From positions 4,032,001 to 4,096,000 of the forward strand of contig OZ244937.1 in the NCBI GenBank assembly GCA_965222075.1: DNA of 64,000 bases, in the 5' to 3' direction. This DNA comes from Candidatus Latescibacterota bacterium (GTDB lineage: Bacteria; Latescibacterota; UBA2968; GCA-2709665). Position 1 is the first letter of the stretch. Each line of letters opens with the position of its first letter. A model generated the notes under the pieces. The model was not told the origin of the DNA and did not search any database. It saw only the letters and a program-made list of their open reading frames with translations. Below are positions 16,266 through 18,291 of this stretch, in pieces. The translations under genes were made by a program, and so were the position numbers.

Positions 16266-16377
16266 AGGGAACGCCTGGGAAAGCGAAATTGTCAGGGAGC
16301 AGGAGATACTTTCGGATTTCGGATTGAAGTGCCTCTACTCCGCAATCCACAATCCGCAATTCGGTTGGAGGTGCTGG

Positions 16378-18291
16378 ATGTTTGGACCATACCACAGAAG
16401 GCTCTGGATCGGCCTGATGCTGATTGGGTTGCTGGCTTATGTAACCTTAGATTCAAGGCTGGTTAAGGGCGAAGATGCGTATGCCGCCGTGGAACGAAGT
16501 ATGGACGAGTACGCAGAGACCCTCAAGCTGCTCACACAGAGCTATTTCAAGCCTCTGGAGACGGAGGAGCTCACCACTTCTGCCATTGAGGGGATGCTCG
16601 GCGACCTGGATCCTTATACCCAGTATCTTGGCCCGAAGGCGCTTGAACAGCTCCGGATCGAGACGCAGGGGAAGTTCGGAGGGTTGGGCATTACCATCAG
16701 TTTGAGAAATAAAGTGCCGGTGGTCATGAGTGTGATCGAAGGCACACCTGCGGATACGGCAGGCCTTGTTGTGGGCGACCGTATTGTGAAGATTGAAGGG
16801 CAACCCACGGCCGGAAAAACGCTCCAGGAGGTGGTGGATGTGCTGCGGGGCACACCGGGGATGGGGGTGAGAATTACCCTTGATCGGGCGGGTCGGCCTG
16901 TGCCCTTTGACCAGCTGATCATCCGGGCGCGGATCCGGATTGAGAGTGTAAGGGTGGCTGAGGAGATCGAGCCGGGGATCGGATACATTTCGATGTCGGG
17001 GGTTCTGGGCAGTCGGTTCTCGGAGACGACGCCCCGGGAGTTGGACCAGGCACTCAGGAAGCTGAAGGCGCAGAACATCCGGGGAATGATCCTGGATCTG
17101 CGGGAAAACCCCGGCGGATTGTTGAACCAGGCCGTTGCGGTTGCAGATAAGTTCTTGGGCAAAGGCCAGCTGGTAGTGACCACCAGGGGACGCATGGCCT
17201 CCCAAAACGAGGAGTATCGAACCGAAGAGCCGTCGCTGATTCAAGACACCCCCCTGGTGGTGTTGGTCAACCGCTACAGCGCCAGCGCCTCGGAGATTGT
17301 CGCCGGGGCCATTCAGGATTCGGACCGGGGACTGATTCTGGGCACCCCGACGTTTGGAAAGGGATCGGTGCAGACGGTCAAGTATATCGGAAGGAATAAG
17401 GGCATCAAGCTGACCACGGCCGCCTACTATACACCCAGCGGCCGAAGCATTCACAAGTCCGCGAACGCGAAGCAAGCGCGCGGGCGGTGGCGAGGGATAA
17501 CGTTGACACTTGAGGATACACGTCGGATTTCGGCTTATCAGGTTTTGAGACTCATTGGCGAGGCCGACCGGCGGGAGGATGCACTGGCGGAGCTCAGGGA
17601 AAGGTTCGATTTGAACGAGGAACAGGCAGCACAGGTTATGGATATCCGTTTGGACCAACTTGTGGGCCTGGGGCTGCGTGAGCATGTCGGCGGGCCTGAA
17701 GGGGACGACCCGGAGAAGGCGTTCAAAACCGCGGGGGGCCGCACGGTTTATGGCGGTGGGGGCATTACCCCCGATGTGAAGGTCGAGCCGACACAGCGGC
17801 CGGGGTTGTTGATTGCGCTGGCCAGGGCAGGGCTCTTTTTCGATTTTGCCGTCGATTACGCTGCGACCCATTCTTTTCCGGAAGGGCCGGAGGATTTCAC
17901 GGTGGATGAGGAGGTTGTGAAGGCCTTCCGGGCGTTTTTAGCCGATACCTCAAAGACGGGGGACTTCCACCATCAGACCCTGGGTGAGATTCGGTTGCAG
18001 GAGTTGGAGGAGGCGCTTGAGGAGTCAGACCTCTTCGACGGGGAAGCACGGGGGGCGATGGAACGGTTGCGCGGGGTGGTGGTGGGCGAGCGGGAGGCGG
18101 AATTTGAAAAGGCAAAACCTTATATCCGGCTTGAGATTGAACGTCAGTTGGCCAACCGGGTGTGGGGAGACAGGGCCAAACTTCTGGCCTCTTTAAAGGG
18201 GGACAAGCAGTTTCAGGAGGCGGTGCGGATTTTAAAAGATCCGGAACTCTACAAGAAGAAGATGAACCTGACGCTCGTTTCGATGGAGTAG
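16378..18291 (+). CDS. S41A C-terminal processing protease (CtpA/Prc-like, PDZ domain) with a GyrA-like insertion
   Basis: N-terminal TM helix, LDPYTQY, GKFGGLGI, ILDLRENPGGLL, SASASEIVAGA, TFGKGSVQ, YYTPSGRSI, GGGGITPD. Confidence 0.95.
   Translation: MFGPYHRRLWIGLMLIGLLAYVTLDSRLVKGEDAYAAVERSMDEYAETLKLLTQSYFKPLETEELTTSAIEGMLGDLDPYTQYLGPKALEQLRIETQGKFGGLGITISLRNKVPVVMSVIEGTPADTAGLVVGDRIVKIEGQPTAGKTLQEVVDVLRGTPGMGVRITLDRAGRPVPFDQLIIRARIRIESVRVAEEIEPGIGYISMSGVLGSRFSETTPRELDQALRKLKAQNIRGMILDLRENPGGLLNQAVAVADKFLGKGQLVVTTRGRMASQNEEYRTEEPSLIQDTPLVVLVNRYSASASEIVAGAIQDSDRGLILGTPTFGKGSVQTVKYIGRNKGIKLTTAAYYTPSGRSIHKSANAKQARGRWRGITLTLEDTRRISAYQVLRLIGEADRREDALAELRERFDLNEEQAAQVMDIRLDQLVGLGLREHVGGPEGDDPEKAFKTAGGRTVYGGGGITPDVKVEPTQRPGLLIALARAGLFFDFAVDYAATHSFPEGPEDFTVDEEVVKAFRAFLADTSKTGDFHHQTLGEIRLQELEEALEESDLFDGEARGAMERLRGVVVGEREAEFEKAKPYIRLEIERQLANRVWGDRAKLLASLKGDKQFQEAVRILKDPELYKKKMNLTLVSME

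What the first reader, a model, noticed from the sequence alone, without database searches (positions are those of the whole stretch)
17533..17670. GyrA-like helical segment inserted into the CtpA/S41 protease
Seen: between the S41 motifs YYTPSGRSIH and TAGGRTVYGGGGITPD lies AYQVLRLIGEADRREDALAELRERFDLNEEQAAQVMDIRLDQLVGL. From recall, this aligns without gaps to the GyrA/ParC signature DxVIxLIRxSxxxxxAxxxLxxxFxLxExQAxAILDMRLxxLTGL, which forms the small helical domain at the C-gate dimer interface of type IIA topoisomerases. Inference: an exported protease has captured a topoisomerase dimerisation module in a variable loop, possibly as a new oligomerisation or gating element. I know of no described example.
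Basis: partly seen in the sequence, partly recalled or inferred. Interest (0 to 1): 0.75.

Follow-up and report, generated by a model that had tools for sequence, protein, structure and literature searches.

The report
Gyrase C-gate module inside S41 protease
A membrane-anchored tail-specific (S41) protease carries, as an old and conserved insertion, a small helical module that is truly related to the exit-gate dimer contact of DNA gyrase subunit A, an unusual case of a topoisomerase part reused in an exported protease.

Summary
Window 17533-17670 encodes residues 404-449 of a 637/655-aa S41 protease (gene 16378..18291, +), between YYTPSGRSIH and GGGGITPD. The GyrA likeness is real homology. 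A profile of 27 relatives' inserts, built without the window's own sequence, hits GyrA/ParC in the first 34 PDB rows (best E 5.4e-9). In the window's own genome a 30-sequence insert profile finds only GyrA. Folded alone, the insert's best structural matches are the GyrA C-gate region.

It is not a chimera: three independent assemblies span it. It is not recent either: 109 of the 120 nearest homologs carry it, as do 53 of 151 genomes of the phylum at E <= 6.2e-20. Sister short forms, 79 of 80 more distant S41 loci and the solved CtpA chains lack it.

The insert sits at the end of the protease core, just before the part of the chain where P. aeruginosa CtpA has its C-terminal dimerisation region. 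Two copies are predicted to pair through the GyrA-equivalent face (score 0.46, best control 0.08; this may be memory of GyrA structures). GyrA's DNA-facing basic patch is lost. The function, probably self-association or gating, is inferred. I rate it a new variant of a known kind, of moderate interest.

The parts
16378..18291 (+). S41 (C-terminal processing) protease gene, 637 aa from ATG (M19 of the 655-aa TTG frame that begins at 16324)
   Evidence: the database form P0003 is 637 aa. Pfam S41 scores 165.2 bits against a cut-off of 24. TIGR00225 prc scores 301.4 against 218.6.
16390..16455 (+). N-terminal hydrophobic helix (residues 23-44), read as a signal anchor that places the enzyme outside the cytoplasm
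   Evidence: Helix H23-44 in the model; basic residues lie before it in the sequence. The topology is inferred, not tested.
16474..16629 (+). CtpB_N-like helical region (residues 51-102)
   Evidence: Pfam PF22694, 28.4 bits against a cut-off of 27.
16651..16899 (+). PDZ domain (residues 110-192)
   Evidence: Pfam PDZ_6, PDZ and PDZ_2, E 4.7e-13 to 1.6e-9.
16978..17457 (+). S41 protease core (residues 219-378), with inferred catalytic S321, K346 and Q350
   Evidence: Pfam PF03572. S321, K346 and Q350 are invariant in 33 sequences. Their spacing matches S300/K325/Q329 named in the title of PDB entry 9ku3. Homology to solved CtpA ends at residue 378.
17479..17691 (+). The whole insertion relative to the short sister forms (about residues 386-456)
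   Evidence: Alignment A1: absent in P0115, P0119 and P0121. Also absent in P0108 and P0113.
17497..17532 (+). Predicted beta-hairpin leading into the module (residues 392-403)
   Evidence: Strands E393-396 and E400-403 in the full model; E16-19 and E23-26 in the insert-only model.
17533..17676 (+).
   Evidence: sequence; structure; predicted symmetric interface at 404-420 and 438-451.
17677..17727 (+). Low-confidence acidic/Gly-Pro linker back to the core (residues 452-468)
   Evidence: pLDDT below 50 at 447-460 and at positions 77-85 of the insert model.
17752..17775 (+). GGGGITPD motif (residues 477-484)
   Evidence: G477-G480, I481, P483 and D484 are invariant in A1.
17776..18288 (+). C-terminal helical domain (residues 485-655), corresponding to the precomputed Pfam family PF28547
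   Evidence: Helices in the model. PF28547 tracks this domain and not the insert. No NCBIfam family matches.

Best explanation
The gene encodes a membrane-anchored, extracytoplasmic C-terminal processing protease of the S41 family. Its parts in order are an N-terminal helical region, a PDZ domain, a Ser-Lys-Gln protease core and a clade-specific C-terminal helical domain. At the end of the core, an ancestor of this clade gained an in-frame insertion of about 70 residues. Its helical core of about 48 residues descends from the small globular unit at the tip of the GyrA coiled coil, which forms the C-gate dimer contact of gyrase. The module kept its hydrophobic core and the L-x-G-L turn. It lost the arginine patch that faces DNA in gyrase. 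I propose that it now works as a protein-protein contact: two protease subunits pair through the same face that pairs two GyrA subunits. That would add to or replace the C-terminal dimerisation region that other Ctp proteases have a little further along the chain, and so help build or gate the oligomeric protease chamber. Shown here: the insertion, its homology to GyrA, its age and spread, and the loss of the basic patch. Inferred: the direction of transfer (by parsimony), the periplasmic location, and self-association as the function.
For: Homology:
- A profile of 27 inserts, without the window's sequence and without P0005, was searched against 177,635 PDB sequences. The first 34 rows are all GyrA, ParC or their fusion constructs (E 5.4e-9 to 9.2e-4), and the 35th is a GyrA fragment. 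The first unrelated family is Mfd at E 0.035.
- A 30-sequence insert profile against 45,956 six-frame ORFs of the window's genome gives only the S41 gene itself and GyrA (E 4.2e-6); the next hit is at E 1.8.
- 16 of 27 inserts on their own hit the gyrA model NF004043 at E <= 0.01.
- The insert-only model has core pLDDT 83-94. The listed Foldseek rows are all gyrase chains (49 columns, rmsd 2.4 A, 35% identity). VIA-align ranks 1-4 are GyrA/ParC, Z 6.2-4.9.

Real and old:
- Contigs from three studies span 17200-18000 with no differences or joints.
- 109 of 120 nearest homologs carry the insert.
- 53 of 151 genomes of the phylum carry it at E <= 6.2e-20 in frames of 626-729 aa: 19/19 in the own family, 30/30 in f2, 2/2 in f4 and 2/2 in f6.

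Direction of transfer: the insert is absent from the short sister forms, from 79 of 80 more distant S41 loci and from the solved CtpA chains, whose homology stops at residue 378.

Function:
- Two copies of residues 388-457 gave a median score of 0.46 against a best control of 0.08. That mark was reached by 20 of 30 proteins solved as pairs of one chain and by 1 of 23 solved as single chains. The runs agree in at least 85% of contacts and the partner's pLDDT is at least 61.
- The interface (404-420 and 438-451) maps by the alignment onto S. pneumoniae GyrA 421-434. The paper places R425, R427 and R428 there, at the C-gate dimer interface (PMC8368997, passages).
- In P. aeruginosa CtpA, the chain after the core forms the C-terminal dimerisation region, which the paper describes as divergent between CtpA and CtpB and needed for the hexamer (PMC8764530, passages).
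- The equivalents of the basic patch are basic in 32%, 0% and 14% of 28 sequences.
Against: - The complex score may come from the model's memory of solved GyrA dimers. Only the isolated module was folded, not the whole enzyme, so it is untested whether two inserts can meet in a real oligomer.
- Predicted interface positions are no more conserved than the rest of the module (mean entropy 1.88 against 1.90).
- On their own the structural statistics are weak. Foldseek gives no match at E <= 0.001. VIA Z values are below 8, and generic HTH domains follow at Z 4.3 and below.
- In the full-length model the insert has only pLDDT 55-77.
- Pfam DNA_topoisoIV did not hit the window's segment at E <= 10.
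- BLASTP against the genome's own GyrA finds no match, so no recent donor can be named.
- The insert precedes the GGGGITPD motif, so it is next to the position of the CtpA dimerisation region, not at it.
- No experiment bears on any of this.
Confidence: 0.55

Rival explanations
1. The insert derives from GyrA but does not pair with itself. It acts as a lid or regulator of the substrate tunnel, or as a docking site for a partner or substrate. For comparison, CtpA needs LbcA and Prc needs NlpI.
For: Interface positions are not specially conserved. Only part of the module is strongly conserved: L424 is invariant, A435 nearly so, and F428, L430, L443 and G448 are conserved, which fits a fold core rather than a fixed interface. 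Known Ctp proteases are regulated by adaptors and by PDZ gating (PMC8764530 passages). The module is flanked by low-confidence, probably flexible linkers.
Against: The predicted homodimer passed the tool's mark with clear controls and uses the GyrA-equivalent face. No candidate partner is evident next to the gene: the neighbours are dTMP kinase and proA.
Confidence: 0.28
2. The likeness to GyrA is convergence, or membership of a broad class of small three-helix (HTH-like, PqqD/RRE-like or TRCF-like) modules, and not descent from GyrA. A PqqD-like peptide-binding element would suit a protease.
For: There are weak hits to PqqD: Pfam E 0.005 for the segment (17.6 bits against a cut-off of 23.4) and PqqD_rel_X E 0.0016. 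TRCF matches 7 of 27 members at E <= 0.1, and Mfd appears at E 0.035. A beta-hairpin precedes the helices, as in winged-helix domains. Many HTH domains follow at Z 3-4.3.
Against: GyrA scores exceed every other family by six orders of magnitude in E-value and rise when the profile is used (20 bits to 39 bits). No PqqD chain appears among the 60 PDB rows shown of 66. PqqD matches only 3 of 27 members at E <= 0.1, against 16 of 27 for gyrA at E <= 0.01. GyrA of the same phylum scores up to 52.8 bits.
Confidence: 0.08
3. The segment is an assembly chimera or a local sequencing artefact that joins gyrA-like DNA into the protease gene.
For: gyrA lies about 19 kb from the S41 gene in the same genome.
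Against: Single contigs of 4.7-7.5 kb from three studies cover 17200-18000 with no differences, joints or loose ends, and a fourth run covers 17494-17768 (one of these may be the source sample). Diverged copies occur in 109 of 120 homologs and in 53 genomes. BLASTP finds no match to the genome's own GyrA.
Confidence: 0.01

Closest known systems
P. aeruginosa CtpA (PDB 7RPQ, 8SXE-8SXH), H. pylori CtpA (9JR1 and others) and B. subtilis CtpB (4C2C)
   Same: They share the N-terminal helical region, PDZ domain and S41 core with the Ser-Lys-Gln residues. Profile E is 8.4e-108 to 7RPQ. Foldseek E is 1.3e-33 to 8SXG at about 40% identity. These are oligomeric, self-compartmentalising periplasmic proteases (PMC8764530 passages).
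   Different: Homology stops at YYTPxGRSI(H/Q). The solved enzymes have no GyrA-like module. After the core they carry a short dimerisation region (S10, a loop and H6 in CtpA). This protein instead has the ~70-aa insert plus a 170-aa helical domain (PF28547). The specific CtpA, CtpB and CtpC equivalog cut-offs are not met: 232-256 bits against 625-665.
C-gate globular unit of GyrA/ParC (e.g. B. subtilis 4DDQ, S. pneumoniae 4Z2C, S. aureus 5CDM)
   Same: The helical unit of about 48 residues aligns without gaps at about 35% identity. Profile E is 5.4e-9. Structural fit is rmsd 2.4 A over 49 columns. The predicted self-contact uses the equivalent residues.
   Different: There are no flanking coiled-coil arms, no winged-helix domain with the catalytic tyrosine, no tower and no C-terminal domain. 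The whole-model score is 20-25 bits against a cut-off of 877. The DNA-facing R425/R427/R428 patch is not kept. The inferred location is outside the cytoplasm, where there is no DNA.
Nocardia iowensis hypothetical protein GAA5103378.1 (P0135) and P0278: Clp_N plus two GyrA-like repeats
   Same: This is a second non-topoisomerase host of the same GyrA segment. Pfam DNA_topoisoIV matches at E 1e-12, two stretches, model positions 334-409. It matches the S41-insert profile at E 7.8e-9.
   Different: The partner domain is cytoplasmic-type (Clp_N). The module is in tandem and includes more of the coiled coil. It is very rare: 2 proteins in the length range searched. It is unrelated to S41.
TIGR03900 MXAN_5808-family long S41 peptidases
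   Same: Best-scoring NCBIfam row, 305.2 bits, over residues 77-377.
   Different: The cut-off of 660.95 is not met. Only the PDZ and core part aligns (model positions 98-394 of 973). I did not examine whether that family has a similar insert.

Membership tests
Peptidase S41 / C-terminal processing protease (TIGR00225 prc subfamily) | S41 domain and subfamily model over the curated cut-offs | tested here: met
   PF03572 scores 165.2 bits against 24. TIGR00225 scores 301.4 against 218.6.
Peptidase S41 / C-terminal processing protease (TIGR00225 prc subfamily) | PDZ domain ahead of the protease core | tested here: met
   PDZ_6, PDZ and PDZ_2 at residues 110-192.
Peptidase S41 / C-terminal processing protease (TIGR00225 prc subfamily) | Catalytic Ser-Lys(-Gln) residues | tested here: met
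   S321, K346 and Q350 are invariant in 33 sequences. The spacing (25, +4) equals S300/K325/Q329 in the title of PDB entry 9ku3. The assignment is by spacing and conservation, not by a residue-level structural check.
Peptidase S41 / C-terminal processing protease (TIGR00225 prc subfamily) | Fold of solved Ctp proteases | tested here: met
   Foldseek E 1.3e-33 to 8sxg_A, TM 0.69 on the target's length.
Peptidase S41 / C-terminal processing protease (TIGR00225 prc subfamily) | Proteolytic activity on C-terminal tails | not testable with these tools
   Needs an enzyme assay.
Named Ctp equivalogs (CtpA NF045588, CtpB NF045589, CtpC NF045590) | Score over the equivalog cut-off | tested here: not met
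   231.6, 235.5 and 256.4 bits against cut-offs of 625, 633 and 665.
GyrA/ParC (type IIA topoisomerase subunit A) | Full-length match over the curated cut-off (winged-helix domain with catalytic Tyr, tower, coiled coil, C-terminal domain) | tested here: not met
   TIGR01063 scores 20.1 bits (whole protein) or 24.6 bits (segment) against 877. Only model positions 384-428 of 800 match.
GyrA/ParC (type IIA topoisomerase subunit A) | Sequence homology of the insert to the C-gate globular unit | tested here: met
   Profile without the window's sequence: E 5.4e-9, and the first 34 PDB rows are all GyrA/ParC. GyrA is the only other hit in the own genome. 16 of 27 members hit on their own.
GyrA/ParC (type IIA topoisomerase subunit A) | Same fold as the C-gate unit | tested here: inconclusive
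   GyrA/ParC rank first with both aligners. However, Foldseek E is 0.07-0.5 and Z is 4.9-6.2, values that small helical domains can reach by common arrangement.
GyrA/ParC (type IIA topoisomerase subunit A) | DNA-facing basic patch at the gate (S. pneumoniae R425, R427, R428; PMC8368997) | tested here: not met
   The window protein has R442, D444 and Q445. Across 28 sequences these positions are basic in 32%, 0% and 14%.
GyrA/ParC (type IIA topoisomerase subunit A) | Homodimer contact through the unit | tested here: inconclusive
   Prediction only: score 0.46 against a best control of 0.08. The mark was reached by 20 of 30 proteins solved as pairs and 1 of 23 solved as single chains. It may be memory of GyrA structures, and the isolated module was used.
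PqqD / RRE peptide-binding domain | Score over the Pfam gathering cut-off | tested here: not met
   17.6 bits against 23.4 for the segment. 3 of 27 members at E <= 0.1. PqqD_rel_X scores 19.4 against 35.

The most novel reading that the evidence does not exclude
The globular tip of the gyrase C-gate is an autonomous, portable dimerising or gating unit. It has been recruited at least twice outside topoisomerases: into this S41 clade and into a Nocardia Clp_N protein. In this protease it would work outside the cytoplasm as an openable protein gate that closes the oligomeric proteolytic chamber, coupling gate opening to substrate entry or product exit much as gyrase couples it to DNA exit.
Probability: 0.25. 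Interest if true: 0.7.

Novelty: new variant of a known kind. Interest (0 to 1): 0.55.

Why it matters
It shows that a piece of an essential DNA enzyme, normally seen only inside type IIA topoisomerases, can survive as a separate folding unit and be reused in an unrelated, exported enzyme. For protease biology, it marks a large uncultured-lineage clade of Ctp proteases whose oligomerisation or gating is probably built differently from the CtpA, CtpB and Prc models. For topoisomerase biology, it offers a natural minimal C-gate unit, free of the coiled-coil arms and of DNA binding, on which to test what makes the gate contact form and open. I found no description of it in five literature searches. 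The precomputed Pfam annotations of the homologs list no family for the insert.

Tried and rejected
- **Full-length profile against the PDB:** PDZ hits swamped the list and no GyrA appeared among the 60 rows shown of 387. I replaced it with the insert-only profile.
- **PF28547 lookup:** the family is not in the local library. I inferred indirectly that it is the C-terminal domain.
- **ESM Atlas on residues 388-456:** the best score was 0.79, below the tool's lead level, so nothing was used.
- **Earlier notes of this scan:** none.
- **BLASTP of the insert against the genome's own GyrA:** no match, so a recent copy of the resident gyrA is rejected.
- **Conservation of the predicted interface:** no difference from the rest of the module.
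- **Named genome scan:** Only L004 had the insert.
- **Multi-stretch hits in the big search:** P0126 (3058 aa, 25 stretches), P0131 and P0179 are repetitive proteins with no topoisomerase family match. I do not count them as homologs.
- **Sequencing runs with small shares of words:** sponge, marine and coral metagenomes at 0.06-0.16.
- **PqqD/RRE reading:** considered and set aside (see rivals).
- **Whole-enzyme homodimer:** 2 x 655 residues exceeds the 1000-residue limit of the complex tool, so only the module was tested.
Full report
**What is there.** The finding lies in a 655-codon frame at 16324..18291 on the + strand. Database copies of the same protein are 637 aa and begin at M19, the ATG at 16378.

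The protein is a clear S41 C-terminal processing protease:
- Pfam Peptidase_S41 covers 219-378 (165 bits), PDZ covers 110-192, and a CtpB_N-like helical region covers 51-102.
- TIGR00225 prc is over its cut-off, while the named CtpA, CtpB and CtpC equivalogs are far under theirs.
- S321, K346 and Q350 are invariant in 33 relatives. Their spacing equals the S300/K325/Q329 named in a H. pylori CtpA entry title.
- A hydrophobic helix at 23-44 preceded by basic residues suggests a signal anchor with the enzyme outside the cytoplasm. That is an inference.
- The neighbours are dTMP kinase upstream and proA on the other strand.
- The genome has at least three further S41 loci. The insert profile matched none of them.

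**Is the GyrA likeness real?** Yes.
- With the single 96-aa segment, the NCBIfam gyrA model matches residues 406-450 to model positions 384-428 without gaps (E 5.7e-6). In the PDB search, 20 of 22 matches at E <= 10 are GyrA (best E 0.0048). These values are marginal on their own, so I tested the family.
- An alignment of 33 homologs shows the insert in 30. I built a profile from 27 inserts, leaving out the window's protein and its closest relative. Against 177,635 PDB sequences it gave GyrA, ParC or their fusion constructs in the first 34 rows (E 5.4e-9 to 9.2e-4). A GyrA fragment came 35th, and the first other family, Mfd, only at E 0.035. The score rose from about 20 bits to 39 bits on going from one sequence to the profile, which is what homology predicts and chance does not.
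- In the window's own genome, a 30-sequence insert profile matched only the S41 gene and GyrA among 45,956 six-frame ORFs (E 4.2e-6; next hit E 1.8).
- Taken one at a time, 16 of 27 inserts hit a gyrA model at E <= 0.01.
- Pfam's DNA_topoisoIV model is less sensitive here. It gave no hit for the window's segment at E <= 10 and hit 5 of 27 members at E <= 0.1.
- Weak PqqD and TRCF hits also occur but are far behind.

**Structure.**
- The full-length model (pLDDT 78) puts a beta-hairpin at 393-403 and short helices at 404-448 in the insert, at pLDDT 55-77.
- Folded alone with its family alignment, the core reaches pLDDT 83-94.
- With Foldseek, the listed matches are all gyrase chains (49 columns, rmsd 2.4 A, 35% identity), but E is only 0.07-0.5 because the domain is small.
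- With VIA-align, the four best of 48,161 chains are GyrA or ParC (Z 6.2-4.9). Generic HTH domains follow at Z 4.3 and below.
- The ranking agrees with the sequence result. The statistics alone would not carry it.

**Artefact?** No.
- Logan contigs of three runs from three studies each cover 17200-18000 in one piece with no differences, joints or loose ends. A fourth study's run covers 17494-17768. One of these may be the source sample.
- More telling, diverged copies are widespread (next paragraph).
- BLASTP finds no match between the insert and the genome's own GyrA.

**Age and spread.**
- Of the 120 nearest homologs, 109 carry the insert (27 of these built the profile). The 11 without it are one truncated fragment and ten short forms of 558-590 aa. 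The five short forms I aligned (P0108, P0113, P0115, P0119, P0121) share the C-terminal domain.
- Sources label some insert-bearing homologs Gemmatimonadota or Latescibacterota.
- In 151 genomes of the window's phylum, 53 have a strong match (E <= 6.2e-20) in frames of 626-729 aa: 19 of 19 in the own family, 30 of 30 in a second family of the order, and 2 of 2 in each of two further families.
- Another large family shows weaker matches in S41-sized frames, which I did not verify. The remaining families show mostly only the GyrA match.
- Among 80 named, more distant S41 loci, only one has the insert.
- Solved CtpA chains stop aligning at residue 378.
- GyrA and ParC are universal while the insert is confined to one S41 clade, so the direction is GyrA to S41 by parsimony.
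- In the library of 1.84 billion representatives, the profile found 1190 proteins at E <= 0.001. The ones I checked were GyrA fragments (5 of 10 scanned), apart from the cases below.

**What it may do.** The matched GyrA stretch is the globular part of the C-gate.
[quoted passage not shown] By the alignment these map to R442, D444 and Q445. Across 28 inserts these positions are basic in 32%, 0% and 14%. So the DNA-facing patch is lost, as expected away from DNA, while the hydrophobic core (L424 invariant; A435, F428, L430, L443) and the L-x-G-L turn are kept.
- Two copies of residues 388-457 were predicted to pair, with a median score of 0.46 against a best control of 0.08. That mark was reached by 20 of 30 proteins solved as pairs of one chain and by 1 of 23 solved as single chains. 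The runs agreed in at least 85% of contacts and the partner's pLDDT was at least 61.
- The symmetric interface (404-420 and 438-451) uses the GyrA-equivalent residues. The tool warns that such a pass can be memory of solved GyrA dimers. It also says nothing about the whole enzyme.
- Interface positions are not more conserved than others.
- On position, the insert begins where homology to CtpA ends. In P. aeruginosa CtpA the following chain is the C-terminal dimerisation region (S10 at 370-376, a disordered loop at 378-411, H6 at 418-435). The paper says this region differs between CtpA and CtpB and is needed for the hexamer and for full activity (PMC8764530, passages read). The insert precedes the GGGGITPD motif, so it is next to that region, not identical in position.

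I therefore favour self-association or gating of the oligomer at about 45%. A non-self-pairing role as lid or docking site is the main rival.

**Known or new.** Five literature searches found nothing on a GyrA-like module in S41 proteases (listings only, apart from the two papers read in passages). The recent Pfam family PF28547 listed for the homologs tracks the C-terminal domain, not the insert. P0028 and P0103 have the insert but not PF28547, and five insert-less forms have it. I could not read that entry itself.

The module is not unique to S41. A Nocardia iowensis hypothetical protein, and one relative, combine Clp_N domains with two tandem GyrA-like units that Pfam itself assigns to DNA_topoisoIV.

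**Verdict.** This is a new variant of a known kind of enzyme.

Noticed in passing
Own genome: gyrA at G000:C1:4026808-4029198 (-), about 3-5 kb before the window start; S41 gene at window 16378-18291: The S41 gene and gyrA lie 13-29 kb apart in the window's genome and in at least 20 other genomes listed (for example G150, G072, G122, G111, G079, G063, G087). This spans more than one family. It may be plain conserved synteny, or a hint about where the donor DNA came from.
   Followed up: partly
P0135 (NCBI GAA5103378.1, Nocardia iowensis) and P0278: A 315-aa protein has two Clp_N repeats followed by two tandem copies of the GyrA coiled-coil tip and C-gate unit (Pfam DNA_topoisoIV E 1e-12). Only 2 such proteins were found in the length range searched. 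This is a second non-topoisomerase host of the module.
   Followed up: partly
window 17776-18288: The 170-aa C-terminal helical domain matches no NCBIfam family and nothing in the local Pfam copy. It corresponds to the precomputed family PF28547, whose description I could not read. It is shared with the insert-less short forms.
   Followed up: partly
L002 = G000:C1:4127074-4131447 (outside the window): A second GyrA-like gene (frame of 640 aa) scores 248.6 bits against the gyrA cut-off of 877, matching model positions 11-492. It may be a ParC-like or short topoisomerase A subunit without the C-terminal domain. The insert profile did not match it.
   Followed up: no
G000:C1:3154333-3154858 (-) (outside the window): An S41 domain is split over two adjacent frames (132 and 322 aa), with model positions 81-165 and 1-62. 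This may be a frameshifted or broken S41 paralog.
   Followed up: no
P0126 (3058 aa), P0131 (424 aa), P0179 (324 aa): These are repetitive proteins that match the insert profile in 25, 6 and 4 stretches through an 'L..FGLS..EA..I...L.QLV'-like helical repeat. No topoisomerase family matches them. Whether they are related to the module is unclear.
   Followed up: partly
window 16324-16377: The open frame extends 18 codons upstream of the ATG to a TTG. Homologs and the database form start at the ATG, so the TTG start given by the ORF list is probably not used.
   Followed up: partly
PDB Mfd chains (e.g. 6x26_A residues 1021-1063): The insert profile weakly matches the TRCF domain of Mfd (E 0.035; Pfam TRCF in 7 of 27 members at E <= 0.1). 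There may be a remote kinship between the GyrA C-gate unit and this Mfd region.
   Followed up: no
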